NCBI GenBank assembly: GCA_951406725.2
Contig: OX597825.1
Location: 63,426,001-63,490,000 of the forward strand
Source of the DNA: Octopus vulgaris
Lineage: Eukaryota
Length of the DNA stretch: 64,000 nt
Direction: 5' to 3'
Shown: positions 17,033-32,080 of the stretch, piece after piece
Numbering within the stretch: the stretch's first letter is position 1
How the letters are laid out: each line of letters starts with the position of its first letter
Made by a program: the position numbers and the translations under genes
The notes under the pieces: model-generated
The model's database searches: none
What the model was told of the DNA's origin: nothing
Seen by the model: only the letters and a program-made list of their open reading frames with translations

Positions 17033-17220
17033 TACAACGATCTTGAACCCACAAGAGTAAAAACGAGAGACAGAAATACAATGCGAATATTCTTTTACAA
17101 AACTGTTCATTTAATTTTTCCAAAATTTTATTACTTTTTGCATACCTAAAGTTGAAAAAGTTTCAATGACTGAAACCGGTACTAAAATGTTTTTATGATA
17201 AAATTATTTTAGCATTTTCT
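17033..17220 (+). mobile_element. Short HHR-bearing repeat (U3-A8 family), copy 1
   Basis: Homologous to 26412-26640(-); contains ag TTGAAAA agt ttcaatg act GAAA CCGG TA ct at 17150-17183. Confidence 0.7.
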
Positions 17221-17249
17221 GTGTCAGGGTTTGCTCATACCTCTACAAA

Positions 17250-17420
17250 CTGACAACCGATGTTGATGTGTTTACGTCCACGTAACTTAGCAAATCGGCT
17301 AAACAAACCGATACAATAAGTACTAGATTTGAAAAATGTACTGAGATCGTTTCGTGTCGTCTAAAATTATTCAAGGTTGTACGACATCATGACTGCAGTC
17401 TAATGGCTGAAACAAGTACA
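17250..17420 (+). mobile_element. SINE family B, diverged 3' half
   Basis: tgacaaccgatgttgatgtgtttacgtcc...gtaacttagc...aataagtact...ctgaaacaagta. Confidence 0.75.
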
Positions 17421-18847
17421 ATGGTAAGCAATTATGCGTCCTGAGTATTCGTGTTATTATATGTAAAATGATAAATTTATTTTTGCAATTACGATATGCA
17501 TTTTACTCGGGCGTTAATAGTATAAGTCCGTGTCAGTGGTATGGACCTTTAAATTTTCCGTTACGGTATACAAACTCATGCCTGCCTTTGTGAGATGTAT
17601 AACAATTATATTAATATTATTTATTTAGGAAAGAATTAACTTCGATTTTAATGAACGTGCATCGTTGTTTTTTGGGGTTTCTTTTTTCAGAATAGATAGC
17701 TAAAACATGTTTTACAACATTCAAAACTATGCATATGCTTTACAAAACTTGATACACATTTTGATAAACAGGAGTTGAAAACTTGCAAGATGGAATCCGA
17801 ACTTGTGAACACTTAAGTTACATTCGATAACTGCATTGTGAATTCAGAAAATTGATAAATATAATATATACAAGTTATAACATGTTACTTCCATTATTTT
17901 CCTTTCCATGATTTTTGTTTAATGCCTGACGCGAGCTTAAAGCAGATTGTTGTTGTCGCTGCTTTGATGTACCATTGTTTCACTATTAAAACGGTCAACT
18001 GAATCTCCTCCTCATTGAATCTTAAATGTTCTTCAGAATCCTATTGTTTTATTGTGTTAAGTTTCATTAAAGGTATATCAGAGATGACATTCTGTACGAG
18101 TTGACATTAAGTTATCAATTCCAGTTTTGTTTTCTCTCAGCGATATGCTTCATATTTAATTCAGTGAAACAAGTAGCGATAAGATAACGGCCATTAACGC
18201 AATACTGCAGATGAAAGCATAAACCCATATTATTTAAGGTCAGTAGGTTGCTGAATCACTTAACACTTAATGTGTATTCCATTTGCATCAACTGCGATGT
18301 TATCAAACTGAGAAATGTTGTTCCTATTAAATATTTCAGCTTAAATCATTAGCATCAATGTATATAAATCTACATTGGATGTAAATCATTCAGCTTTACA
18401 CAGTGAGGCTCGAGAAGCCATGTAATATGTAATATATAACACAGGTTAAACGATGGAGTAACACAGTCAATAGCAATACATTGTAAACGTCGTTACTTTC
18501 TTAAGTTATTGTGTGTAGTTTGGTACATTTATGTCGTCGTCCGAAAAGTCGCGAGGAAAACCACTGAAACATTCATACTTTTATCATCTTTGAAATCAAC
18601 CATATAATAGGGTCATCTTGCAAAACCATAGGGTGTGACCCTTCTCTTTGATTTGTAAGAGCATGACTGAACATTGTTCATATAAATGAATAATGAGTTT
18701 AATAGGAAAGATTTCCCTTCAAACAATGTTCACAGTAGTGTGCTGTGGACATTGAAATCGTCTTAAGTAATCGTAGTGCTTAAACCTAACGGAAGACTTC
18801 AAATTAAATTTAATGTTGTTACTTATAGTGGTAAACCTTCCTGGGTC

Positions 18848-19200
18848 TGGCCTTATCGTGGTGAGAGAGGTTCGTATTCCATAGATCCAAGAGAGGGTTA
18901 CTGTCTGGAGCGTTGCTCTTGGTGGGACCATTCTATGCAGGTCCCAGACTAATGTGACTCACGGCATGTCGGCTTGCCACCAAGATGGCAGCTACATCAT
19001 CCGACTTATCTGAGGAGGATCAATAACCCGCCCAGAAGAACCTTCAACCTGTTATGACAACGACCAGAAGAACCCAGAATGCCCGACAAACCAGACATTT
19101 AGGATGTAGCGATGGCAAGCACTGGTGAACCTGGTCGGCTCTATGCATGATGACCTCTATGGGACCACTAGCCTGGGATGACCCCTGTCTCAACAAGCAA
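18848..19200 (+). mobile_element. RTE-clade (Expander-like) LINE 5' UTR fragment
   Basis: ccttatcgtggtgagagaggttcgtattccatagatcc...tgctcttggtgggacc...caggtcccagactaa resembles the conserved RTE 5' end as I recall it. Confidence 0.55.
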
Positions 19201-21021
19201 GAGCATGAGCGAAGCGTACCTATGTATTGTGACGCATTATTTCTATACTCCTAGTATCTATTGATAGCTAGGTAGAGTGACTGTTAAAACTTAACTCTGT
19301 TGATTATGTACATGATGCTGTACCATTGACAGGATGTATATGGGCTCATACAAACACGTAATCCGTTACTGTGTCAATTCATGTAACTCCGTAGGGTATG
19401 ATAAGTGGGTAAAATCTAGAACCCGAGGTAAATGATAATGGTCTCTTTCGACATCCAAACGGCGACCGTGAAAGGGTTCGATCGAGCATTACTTTGCTTG
19501 AATAATAAAGAATTCATCTCTCTATATCTATATATCTATCTTGGTTATCTCTCTGACAGCCAACTTACGTATCTGTTTGATCATATATATATATATATAT
19601 ATATATATATATATATATATATATGTATGTATATATATATATATATATATAAAATATACATACACATTAATGGATACACACATATTAATAGTTACACATG
19701 CACATAGATGTATATGTATATCTATGTGTATGTGTATATATGTGGTTGTTATATATATATATGCATGCATAAACGTATATAAATAAATATATATATGCAT
19801 ACATAAGCATATATGCATACATAAGCATATATATATATATGTATATATATATATATATGTGTGTGCGTGTGTGTGTGTTTGTGTGTGTATGTATATATGT
19901 ATGTATTTTTGTATGTACGAGCATAAATATTCAAAATATATACTTGTGAATAAGTACATACACAGGTAGTGGGATTTATGTCTATATACATGCGTGTGTA
20001 CCCGGTGATATAGACACTCGTACATATCGTTGAATAAGTCTTCATTTATCCCCCGCTTATCCCTACTGATACACATACACATTTATGCATATTCATACAC
20101 ATTAAACATATAGGTGCTGCACACTCAGATACATTCATACAAAACAACATACACACATCCAGTTGCACACGTACTTACATTACCTACACAAATTTACAGA
20201 CACCCAGCTTATTGTTCCTTGATTCAATATGATGTCTGTATTCCTCATTGTCTCAGGTTCTTAAAAAGAATTCTTTGCAAAACTGAAATATACAAGAAAT
20301 ATGTAACTTCACCAAACAAGATTAGTGCGATGAACACTTGTTTTGTAACAGCAATCTTAAGTGAAAGATTTCAGATCTGATTATTGACTTTTTGTCTTTT
20401 GTTTGCCATTCTTTATATGTTGTTTGCTATTCTTTACTTATTGTTGTTTCCCGTGTCCATATTTGATTCTCATACTTCTTTTGTAATTGTTTTATTTCTT
20501 ATTGCTTTACAGAAACACTTCTGGCAACAATACAGGAACCAGTTATGTAGATATATATATATATGTGTGTGTGTGTGTGTATATGTGTGTGTGTGTGTGT
20601 GTGTATTCATATGTATCTATGTATGTATACATATGTGTGTGTCCGTGTGTGTATGCATGCATATATGCATATGAATATAGCTTCAATCGCAAACTCAGCA
20701 GATATAGAAATACACCATTTCTTTAAGAAAATTATTTCTGTGTGCAGTACACGTTATGTAATTTAAAATTTGTACTTGTTTCCAGTGGATACAGACATAC
20801 AAACACACTCAAACAAATATAAGAAACACATGCACAAACTATAAGAACGATTCGTTCTTGTATTTAAACAGTTAATTAAGTCTAGGTTGACCAAGTCTTA
20901 CACAAAATAGGGTATTTATTGTTTGCACTTATAATATGAGCAAATCGTTGTTCTCTGTTTTTAAGAGACAAGTTTGGTAACTGTAGCAGATGAGACGTAA
21001 AAACGTAGTAACGCATAATAC

Positions 21022-30165: not shown

Positions 30166-30220
30166 ATATATATATATATATGTATACACATATACGAATC
30201 AGATTCAAGGAGTCAGGGTA

Positions 30221-30273
30221 TACGTTGATGAGAGATATAAGGAAAACACTCACCACTCGGAACATATTACGTG
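30221..30273 (+). ncRNA. Degenerate hammerhead-like motif
   Basis: acg TTGATGA gag...ctc GGAA CATAT TA cgt; stems I and II pair, two core substitutions. Confidence 0.4.
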
Positions 30274-30554
30274 AAATGTTTGCGAACACAAATTTTGTAT
30301 TTACTGAACAATGGTCTATAAAAACGTTAATAATATAAAGCCTCATATTGGGGCTATGAAAACTCACAGCTAAGAGAAGGAAATTATAGAAGTCAAGAAA
30401 TTTTACATTTTTGCGAAACGTTTTAATTAATCTAAGAATATTCTATAATAGACCAGAAGCAAATAGAAAATCTATTAGAATTGGTTATGTTAGTGATGAT
30501 AGCGTTGATGTTGTTTAACCACACCACATCCAAAATAATGTACTCTAGCAGAAT

Positions 30555-30780
30555 AAGAGTTTTCAGATTTTGGCACAAGCTCGGCAATTTCGGAGAGGAG
30601 CATAAGACGACTACATGGACCCCAATGCACAACTGCTACTAATTTTATCTACACCGAAGAATGAAAGGTAAATTTGACCTCGGTGACATTGGTGACATTG
30701 GACCACAGAATGTAAATACGGGCGAAATGCCGCTGGGCATTTTGCCCGGCTGGGTAACGATTCTGCAAGCTTTCCGCCTT
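30555..30780 (-). mobile_element. SINE family A, diverged
   Basis: gaatgaaaggtaaatttgacctcgg...gaaatgccgct...gcattttgcccgg...taacgattctgc. Confidence 0.75.
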
Positions 30781-30929
30781 AACTCAAATACAGTAATATT
30801 AAAAGGTATTCAAGTTATAACCGTCCAATCATTTTCAGATATAGTTTACCGCAGATGACGTGTACCAAAATGGTGAGCATGTTTATAAGACGTGAGTGTA
30901 TGATCTGTTTTTCATCTAGCGTCAAAGAT

Positions 30930-32080
30930 ATTTTTGTTAACTGAACTATGAACTCCCTTAAGAGATGTTCATAAATTATGTGTAGCAAATTGTCTAGACA
31001 GGTTCGTACAAGAAGACAAAACAATTGACTATATTTTCAGAACTCTAAGATAATGGTTGTTAATTATCAAGAGCAATTTATTTACTTTCTTTCATTTACC
31101 AGTGACATATCTTTGTATTTTCCTAAAAAGATGACAATCACTCTTGCTGATGAGAAATTTATGAAAAGAACCCAGAGAGAATGTTGTGTAAATTTAAGAA
31201 CGGCAACATGTTTATTGAGACATGGTTATAATGCCAAATATTCACAATATATACCTATATACCTCACCGTATATATATGTATATATACATACATGTATTA
31301 TACAGAAACATACACAGACATCCCACCATGTATATATATATATATATATATATATATATATATATATATAAAACAGCGTTAGTGTAATAACAATTATCGA
31401 CAACACAGGCTTAACACTCGCGAGAAAAGTCTTTGCTGGTAGGTTGCGAATTGGCGCAGTGGAGGCTACTTTTTCAAAGTGCGTATTACTGAAACACTTG
31501 AACGTCATGGACATGCGACGCACCTCACTCAAATCTCATCCAAGAGTAATGGACATCGATATTTCGCCATGTTTGTGGCTTATCAATATCACGTAGCCGA
31601 ACCGATTCCGAGGTGAAACGTACCGCCACTCCACGCCTTATATGGATATAGTGTAAAAACTATGTACCGGTACGCCCCAACTATGCATACGTAAGAATAT
31701 ATTCAACTGTGAAATAGAAGCAGCGCTAGTGTAATAATCTTTATCGACCACACATACTTAATGCATATACATAGTTTACTTAGAGACATAGATATTGATG
31801 TCTATAATGAAACATAGAAGAATTGCAGAATAAGGAGGGCAAATACAACTGAATACGTAGCATATATGATATTTCTAATCTGCGGAAGTTACGAAAGTGA
31901 CTCAACGTCTGAGAATTATCAATTGCTCTTGATAATTAACAGCCATTGTTTTAGAGTTCTGAGAATATAGTCAAATGCTTAATGTCTTCTTGTATAAATC
32001 TAACTGTCTAGACAATTTGTTACACATAATTTATGAAGATCTCTTAAGGGAGTTCATACTTCGAGTCAACGAAAATTTGA
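30930..32080. repeat. ~150-bp inverted repeat pair (30930-31080 and 31920-32080)
   Basis: tatgaactcccttaagagat.ttcataaattatgtgta.caaattgtctagaca...aattatcaagagcaatt is present in both orientations. Confidence 0.85.
31372..31755 (-). mobile_element. ~345-bp element with direct terminal repeats and a central HHR motif
   Basis: cagcg(t/c)tagtgtaataa...ttatcgac.acaca at both ends; minus-strand gtgata TTGATAA gcca caaaca tggc GAAA TATCGATG TC cattac at 31546-31592. Confidence 0.65.

What the first reader, a model, noticed from the sequence alone, without database searches (positions are those of the whole stretch)
17033..31592. Recurrent U3-A8 hammerhead core in unrelated families
Seen: UUGAAAA in both copies of one family (17152 and about 26495), UUGAUAA at 31580 and UUGACAA at 21890, each followed by stem II and GAAA. 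Established: C3-G8 is a Watson-Crick pair in the active HHR and U3-A8 is a rare but tolerated compensatory variant. Inference: sharing by two dispersed copies suggests it is the family consensus rather than decay. Standard CUGANGA searches would miss these.
Basis: partly seen in the sequence, partly recalled or inferred. Interest (0 to 1): 0.7.

Follow-up and report, generated by a model that had tools for sequence, protein, structure and literature searches.

The report
U3-A8 hammerhead relics in repeat families
Three unrelated short repeat families in this animal genome carry hammerhead-ribozyme-shaped motifs whose usual C-G core pair is replaced by U-A; this is the inherited form in the one family that could be counted, and the motifs are likely relics of Penelope-type mobile elements, where the same swap is already published.

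Summary
Observation confirmed and extended. All four cited motifs exist: 17152 on +, and 26498, 21893 and 31586 on -. A fifth, decayed copy lies at 22637 (-). All five have U3 and A8, a 3-4 bp stem II, GAAA and an NUH triplet; in 4 of 5, stem III is fully self-complementary, as in dimer-acting type I hammerheads. The three families are unrelated. For family A (17152/26498), 1,923-2,858 contigs per run in four runs show G8 at only 0.5-3.6% of depth, and C3 under 2% in three runs by deduction: U3-A8 is the family consensus, not decay. Families B and C could not be counted. The variant is published: natural U3-A8 in 2011, and about 1,300 U3-A8 hits in Schistosoma in 2014, with the same core boxes, one of them in a Penelope-like element. 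No reverse transcriptase or endonuclease was found nearby, and cleavage was not tested. Verdict: new members of a known kind. The open point is that 3 of 3 families here are U3-A8 and none is C3-G8.

The parts
17033..17222 (+). Family A copy 1 (A17): dispersed repeat, about 20 nt short at its 5' end, next to a (TA)n tract and a degenerate SINE 3' half
   Evidence: 83% and 90% identical blocks with 26432-26639 on the opposite strand; downstream SINE half z 42
17140..17190 (+). Type I hammerhead motif: core UUGAAAA 17152-17158, 4-bp stem II closed by A-U, palindromic stem III ACCGGU, predicted cut after GUA at 17181; stem I decayed to 2 contiguous pairs
26430..26655 (-). Family A copy 2 (A26): about 225-nt unit between microsatellites; ends inferred from contig depth and loose ends
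   Evidence: tables 2 and 7
26460..26510 (-). Type I hammerhead motif: core UUGAAAA 26498-26492, predicted cut after GUA at 26469; changes away from the family majority at 26491 (10.1) and 26473 (palindrome)
   Evidence: majority letters (94-98% and 87-95% of depth)
21738..22011 (-). Family B copy 1 (B1), about 275 nt
   Evidence: 70-74% identical to 22484-22731; 78% column identity
21845..21910 (-). Type I hammerhead motif: core UUGACAA 21893-21887, stem II 4 bp with G10.1-C11.1 and a 6-nt loop, stem III palindrome broken (4 of 10), predicted cut after GUC at 21859
   Evidence: top hit (E 0.021) of a model built from outside C3-G8 motifs
22014..22436 (+). SINE-like repeat (label recalled) lying between the two B copies; not part of the ribozyme families
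   Evidence: 87-94% identical to pieces at 2642-3036 and 63825-63993
22481..22731 (-). Family B copy 2 (B2), same orientation as B1, separated from it by the SINE and about 45 nt
22590..22650 (-).
31371..31760 (-). Family C: one 347-nt unit plus a 43-nt terminal direct repeat (31371-31413 and 31718-31760), ending at a (TA)n tract
   Evidence: (z 13.4, 0 of 300 shuffles)
31540..31600 (-). Best-formed type I motif: core UUGAUAA 31586-31580, 4-bp stem II with G10.1-C11.1 and loop CAAACA, 10 of 10 self-complementary stem III, 5-bp stem I behind an A-C mismatch, predicted cut after GUC at 31552

Best explanation
The five motifs have the shape of type I hammerhead ribozymes with a U3-A8 pair in place of C3-G8; the pair is the inherited consensus of family A and likely of families B and C, and the repeats are likely decaying, non-coding relics of Penelope-like terminal repeats or retrozyme units whose RNA would have cut itself as a dimer. 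Shown: the motifs, three unrelated carrier families, and U3-A8 as the consensus of family A. Inferred: each master element carried U3-A8, which keeps a Watson-Crick 3-8 pair in the active site. The short palindromic stem III is too weak to fold alone, so two copies in a tandem transcript would pair through it and cut after the NUH triplet. A Penelope-type reverse transcriptase and endonuclease acting in trans would have copied the RNA into microsatellite- and AT-rich DNA. Family A looks like a lone terminal repeat with the ribozyme about 40 nt from its 3' end; B (adjacent pair) and C (347-nt unit plus 43-nt repeat) look like retrozyme units. Most present copies are probably inactive.
For: Core, stems and triplets in 5 of 5 copies; fully self-complementary stem III in 4 of 5, with homoduplex energies of -8.3, -3.2, -8.5 and -9.1 kcal/mol. 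Stems differ in sequence between families yet pair; all 7 between-family comparisons are at shuffle level (z -1.5 to 1.1). Family A: G8 0.5-3.6%, C3 under 2% in three runs; the majority letters restore the 10.1-11.1 pair and the perfect palindrome that copy A26 has lost; loose ends run into (TA)n and (GAA)n-like sequence. Literature: U3-A8 in Penelope-type hammerheads, about 1,300 hits in S. mansoni; its table lists UUGAAAA(A) for a Cercyon element and UUGAUAA(A), and a shrimp element with family A's layout (A-U-closed 4-bp stem II, CG palindromic loop, cut after A); 3-8 covariation natural and reported active in vitro; 30-40-bp tails, ribozymes near 3' ends and microsatellite bias in Penelope-like elements; retrozyme units of about 170-400 nt, in molluscs too.
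Against: No cleavage data. No reverse transcriptase or GIY-YIG match in 30 read-through frames of five stretches around the motifs, and no homologue for the one candidate frame, so Penelope parentage is by likeness only. The monomer hammerhead fold is 9-15 kcal/mol above the minimum-energy fold in all five copies. No Rfam hammerhead among the 150 listed matches. A model from 20 outside motifs found only B1, and weakly. No head-to-tail joint for family A among the 15 listed of 23 joints. B and C consensus not counted. The repeat of the linker that would make B an exact tandem dimer is not significant (38 of 300 shuffles).
Confidence: 0.78

Rival explanations
1. Ordinary C3-G8 hammerheads that decayed by two independent transitions in an AT-drifting genome.
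For: Window GC is 33.5%; C>T and G>A are the commonest minor changes in family A; family C has one copy only.
Against: Family A: U3-A8 in over 96% of depth at position 8. B1 and B2 share both letters at about 22% column divergence. Single mutants should outnumber double mutants, yet the window's hits with short stems are all U3-A8. C3 follows G or A and precedes U, so it is no CpG site.
Confidence: 0.05
2. Chance look-alikes: AT-rich repeats that happen to match a small motif and never were ribozymes (most plausible for family A).
For: Bare pattern not significant; descriptor set post hoc; relaxed scans give 3 and 5 other, poorly formed hits; A17, A26 and B2 fold no better than shuffles (z 0.67, 0.42, 0.72); no Rfam hit listed.
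Against: 3 structured hits against 0.037 expected. Full palindromes in stem III were not asked for and appear in all three families. Family A's majority sequence is a better hammerhead than the copy laid on. Weak monomer folding is expected of this class.
Confidence: 0.08
3. The elements are live retrozymes: these or sister loci are transcribed now, self-cleave and give circular RNAs, as in mussel and coral.
For: Family C has retrozyme size, a terminal repeat and a nearly intact motif; mussel retrozymes of 350-390 bp are highly expressed as circles; an octopus annotation lists 31 recently active Penelope-like families.
Against: Four of five copies carry damage in core or stems, and C has a mismatch beside the cut. 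Copies are 17-30% apart. Only 1 of 9 predicted Xenopus retrozyme dimers cleaved in vitro. Ribozyme cleavage was not needed for a lizard Penelope-like element to insert in vitro.
Confidence: 0.09

Closest known systems
Minimal and variant type I hammerheads in Penelope-like element terminal repeats (Cervera and De la Pena 2014, PMC4209133)
   Same: Type I layout, short palindromic stem III, dispersed single copies in many families, U3-A8 core with the same boxes (S. mansoni motifs 3 and 4). Family A matches the listed Marsupenaeus japonicus layout.
   Different: The Schistosoma U3-A8 motifs have no stem III loop, while these have 6-10-nt palindromic stems III. Families B and C lack the extra nucleotide before stem II. 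No coding frame is attached here. No cephalopod is in that table of 56.
Non-LTR retrozymes of animals (Cervera and De la Pena 2020, PMC7229834; Li et al. bioRxiv 10.64898/2026.07.22.740005)
   Same: Non-coding units of about 225-350 nt, GC 36-43%, type I ribozyme with 4-bp stem II and 6-nt loop (B, C), adjacent or terminally repeated copies.
   Different: No long tandem array or circular RNA shown. The passages read do not mention a U3-A8 core. Family A has fixed ends and no listed head-to-tail joint.
Natural hammerhead core variants (Perreault et al. 2011, PMC3088659)
   Same: C3-G8 to U3-A8 covariation reported in several natural examples, citing earlier in vitro activity.
   Different: There the variant is described as a rare one among many; here it is the consensus of a multi-copy repeat and the only core seen in the window.

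Membership tests
Type I hammerhead ribozyme | Core boxes N3-U-G-A-N-N8-A9 and G12-A-A-A15.1 with a Watson-Crick 3-8 pair | tested here: met
   4 of 5 copies complete with U3-A8; B2 has A9U
Type I hammerhead ribozyme | Stems I, II, III around the core, A15.1-U16.1 pair, H17 | tested here: met
   Stem II 3-4 pairs, A15.1-U16.1 and H17 in 5 of 5; stem I 2-5 pairs, weak in A17
Type I hammerhead ribozyme | Match to a curated or independent hammerhead model | tested here: inconclusive
   No hammerhead among 150 listed of 170 Rfam matches; own model from 20 C3-G8 motifs with one stem II sequence hit B1 only, E 0.021
Type I hammerhead ribozyme | Self-cleavage after H17 | not testable with these tools
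   Needs an assay; runs laid were DNA contigs
Penelope-like element terminal repeat | Adjoining frame for Penelope-type reverse transcriptase and GIY-YIG endonuclease | tested here: not met
   None in 30 frames; no homologue for 26521-26658; family A contigs end in microsatellite. So not an autonomous element; a lone or non-autonomous repeat is not excluded
Penelope-like element terminal repeat | Hammerhead with palindromic short stem III near the 3' end | tested here: met
   Family A: predicted cut at 26469, about 40 nt from the end at about 26430
Penelope-like element terminal repeat | 30-40-bp terminal extension and microsatellite or AT-rich targets | tested here: inconclusive
   C has a 43-nt terminal repeat and ends at (TA)n; A loose ends are microsatellite-like; microsatellites are everywhere in this window and no control was run
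Penelope-like element terminal repeat | Sequence homology to the terminal repeat of a full-length element in the same genome | not testable with these tools
   No whole genome is held; metagenome scan for family A found 0
Non-LTR retrozyme | Non-coding unit of about 170-400 nt with one type I hammerhead | tested here: met
   Units of 226, 274 and 347 nt
Non-LTR retrozyme | Head-to-tail tandem copies | tested here: inconclusive
   B: two adjacent copies in the same orientation, split by a SINE; C: 1.1 units; A: no such joint listed
Non-LTR retrozyme | Expression as circular RNA | not tested
   No RNA run was laid

The most novel reading that the evidence does not exclude
In this lineage (probably octopods) the hammerheads of independent Penelope-type and retrozyme families have switched wholesale to U3-A8, making it the majority core genome-wide. 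Censuses built on CUGANGA would then have missed most of this lineage's ribozymes, and the genome would hold thousands of natural copies for testing how the 3-8 pair can be exchanged. The window shows 3 of 3 unrelated families with U3-A8 and none with C3-G8.
Probability: 0.35. Interest if true: 0.5.

Novelty: new member of a known kind. Interest (0 to 1): 0.3.

Why it matters
It is a practical warning more than a discovery: hammerhead censuses that fix CUGANGA overlook whole repeat families, here all three in 64 kb. The variant and its link to Penelope-like elements are in print since 2011 and 2014. What would be new is a lineage in which U3-A8 is the rule across unrelated families and in full, canonical-looking motifs (B, C). 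That would bear on whether these ribozymes are under selection in their elements. My searches listed no paper on cephalopod hammerheads.

Tried and rejected
Rfam: of 170 matches, the 150 listed were microsatellite-driven microRNA or snoRNA models, all below their gathering scores; 20 were not shown. Repeat finder output was swamped by microsatellites. Pfam on 30 read-through frames: no Penelope domain; only a mariner remnant and low-complexity hits. The idea that the 5' part of family A ends a GIY-YIG frame found no homologue, which is weak evidence. A metagenome scan for family A found nothing. Run search for 30900-32500: no RNA holder listed. A covariance model from outside C3-G8 motifs was over-fitted to one stem II sequence and long stems III, with 3 of 20 rows misaligned; it found only B1 and is not counted as strong support. 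MAFFT misaligned family A against B and C, so no pair counts were made. The likeness between the SINE 3' tail and family A's stem II and GAAAC did not beat shuffles (23 and 49 of 300): not claimed. A17 lying inside a whole SINE: rejected, no 5' half upstream (215 of 300). Exact tandem linker for B: not significant. Other hits of the loose scans (442, 29516, 56256; 29222, 29516, 39287, 44269, 62043) have unpaired 3-8 positions and long AT-rich loops and were set aside as chance. ARAGORN found no tRNA. Four look-ups of earlier findings returned nothing. Lunse et al. (RNA Biol 14:1499) and Przybilski and Hammann 2007 are not held and were seen only as references, so rates for U3-A8 are not quoted.
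Full report
Setting. The window is AT-rich (GC 33.5%) and dense in microsatellites and short repeats. No whole genome is held. The SINE-like repeat at 22014-22436 looks, from recall only, like an octopus SINE; no call names the organism, and the argument does not depend on it.

Observation. A scan for type I hammerheads with positions 3 and 8 left free gave 7 hits. A looser scan gave 10 hits and added a fifth U3-A8 copy at 22637 (-), in which A9 is lost. The other hits have unpaired 3-8 positions and long AT-rich loops. No scan found a structured C3-G8 motif. The bare pattern is not above chance (5 against 2.2; 8 of 100 shuffles). With compact stems required, 3 hits remain, all U3-A8, against 0.037 expected per window for that class and about 0.37 for all 16 classes; 1 of 300 local shuffles reached 3. 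The thresholds were chosen after I had seen the motifs, and the 17152 copy fails them.

Anatomy. Family A (17152, 26498): 4-bp stem II closed by A-U with a 5-nt loop, 6-nt palindromic stem III, cut predicted after GUA. Family B (21893, 22637) and family C (31586): 4-bp stem II with G10.1-C11.1 and a 6-nt loop, 10-nt stem III, cut predicted after GUC or AUC. Stem III is fully self-complementary in 4 of 5 copies and in all three families; the descriptor asked for two pairs only. As monomers the hammerhead folds lie 9-15 kcal/mol above the minimum-energy folds, and three of the five copies fold no better than shuffles. That is what the published dimer model expects, but it is also no support.

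Carriers. The two A copies share blocks of 83% and 90% identity. B1 and B2 lie in the same orientation with only the SINE and about 45 nt between them (70-74% identity). C is a 347-nt unit with a 43-nt terminal direct repeat (0 of 300 shuffles), ending at a (TA)n tract. All 7 between-family alignments score at shuffle level, so 'unrelated families' holds at this sensitivity.

Consensus or decay. One laying of contigs was allowed; I used it on 26420-26656 (family A) at 80% likeness with four runs under three organism labels. 2,724, 2,204, 2,858 and 1,923 contigs were laid, so this is a high-copy family. At 26493 (position 8) the letter that means G8 makes up 2.66, 3.62, 0.97 and 0.46% of depth (computed). 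No row is shown for 26498 (position 3), but 19 rows were not shown. The tallies of A>G places (4, 2 and 2 in X6, X4 and X15) are fully accounted for by listed places at 2% or more, so C3 is under 2% in those runs if the tallies use the same threshold; in X1 one A>G place is unlisted. The majority letters at 26491 (94-98%) and 26473 (87-95%) restore the 10.1-11.1 pair and the perfect palindrome, so the family sequence is a better hammerhead than this copy. Depth falls off near 26430 and 26645, and loose ends run into (TA)n or (GAA)n-like sequence: a unit of about 225 nt with the predicted cut about 40 nt from its 3' end. No head-to-tail joint is among the 15 listed of 23. For B, both copies share U3 and A8, which dates the pair to their common ancestor. 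C is uncounted.

How rare is U3-A8? As an outside control I scanned metagenome contigs for motifs with family B's stem II and either letter at 3 and 8 (123 stretches from 3 of 64 parts of the collection). Of 125 distinct hits, 98 were C3-G8, 16 U3-G8, 7 C3-A8 and 4 U3-A8; of the 22 that passed a strict type I test, 21 were C3-G8, 1 U3-G8 and none U3-A8. So the variant is rare at large. In Penelope-type motifs it is not. Cervera and De la Pena 2014 (PMC4209133; read: parts 1-2 of 4 of the text and parts 1-2 of 3 of the supplement) found U3-A8 in a variant of the S. mansoni Cercyon element that their descriptor had missed, and then about 1,300 hits against about 2,000 for C3-G8. Their table of 56 motifs has 2 with U3-A8, with the boxes UUGAAAA(A) and UUGAUAA(A) seen here, and a shrimp motif laid out like family A. 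Perreault et al. 2011 (PMC3088659; passages) first reported natural U3-A8 and cite earlier in vitro activity. At the Schistosoma share (about 0.4), three U3-A8 families in a row would have odds of about 6%; at the table's share (2 of 56, biased by its descriptor) far less.

Parentage. Pfam found no reverse transcriptase or GIY-YIG domain in 30 read-through frames of five stretches around the motifs, and the one candidate frame has no homologue. Membership of an autonomous Penelope-like element is therefore not met. The likeness rests on the ribozyme type, its place near the 3' end, the terminal repeat of C and microsatellite neighbours (Craig et al. 2021, PMC8557442, passages), and on unit sizes that match animal retrozymes (PMC7229834, passages and section 14). 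A 2026 preprint (10.64898/2026.07.22.740005, parts 1-3 of 5) derives such retrozymes from Penelope terminal repeats, which would join the two readings. An Octopus vulgaris annotation lists Penelope-like elements and has no occurrence of 'ribozyme' in its main text (PMC13282606, passages; its supplements were not read).

Mechanism. Shown: sequence, predicted pairing, family structure, consensus of A. From the literature: the 3-8 pair can be exchanged; short palindromic stems III act as dimers with low activity (review PMC6765202, passages); a lizard element's ribozyme needs its protein to cut and is not needed for insertion in vitro (PMC11167929, passages). Inferred: master elements with U3-A8 were transcribed in tandem, cut as dimers or with protein help, and were copied in trans by Penelope enzymes; the copies here have since decayed. 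Whether U3-A8 was selected or only carried along cannot be told from one family's copies, which all descend from one master.

Against my reading. No cleavage or expression data; no Rfam hammerhead among the listed matches; my outside model found B1 only; no coding frame; B and C uncounted.

Print check. Searches for the variant and for cephalopod hammerheads returned the papers above; none listed describes these families. PMC7151607 (one passage) did not bear on the question. The library lacks most subscription papers, including two directly relevant ones, and repeat databases were not searchable.

Verdict. It is a published core variant in a published class of elements, found in families that are probably undescribed as ribozyme carriers. 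Interest 0.3. The one open surprise is the 3-to-0 count of U3-A8 over C3-G8 families, which a genome-wide count would settle.

Noticed in passing
22385-22412 (+) against 17160-17185 (+): The 3' end of the SINE shares a 12-nt exact stretch, a similar hairpin and a following GUA with family A's stem II, GAAAC and cut site, and its simple-repeat tail starts where the cut would be. It did not beat shuffles (23 and 49 of 300).
   Followed up: partly
17218-17427 (+): A degenerate 3' half of the SINE directly follows copy A17; no matching 5' half lies upstream.
   Followed up: yes
26479 and 26491; 26466 and 26501: Minor variants in family A at both sides of the 10.1-11.1 pair (about 1-5% of depth) would together give G10.1-C11.1; haplotypes are not available.
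   Followed up: partly
about 32470-33390 (+): Mariner (Mos1-type) transposase remnant with stops: HTH_48 E 6e-18, Transposase_1 E 2.3e-17.
   Followed up: partly
about 27300-27900 (+): Frame pieces that read like a broken Tc1/mariner-type transposase (by eye, recalled motif; no Pfam hit).
   Followed up: no
59397-59702 (-): 101-codon frame that reads like the end of a restriction-endonuclease-type non-LTR retrotransposon (by eye, recalled).
   Followed up: no
24416-24559 and 24715-24858; 30936-31059 and 31940-32070; 46962-47002 and 47206-47246: Inverted repeat pairs (85%, 85% and 95%), probably MITE-like; the second pair brackets family C.
   Followed up: no
15699-16025 and 40693-41030: A repeat with a 149-nt block 99% identical between two copies, so a young family; related pieces at 1576-1636 and 28843-28908.
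   Followed up: no
39268-39690: Two overlapping frames of ordinary composition (101 and 140 codons); possibly an exon of a host gene.
   Followed up: no
L006, L024, L029, L039, L076, L085, L086, L116 and others: A recurring family of C3-G8 type I hammerheads with an 8-nt palindromic stem III in metagenome contigs, laid out like families B and C.
   Followed up: partly
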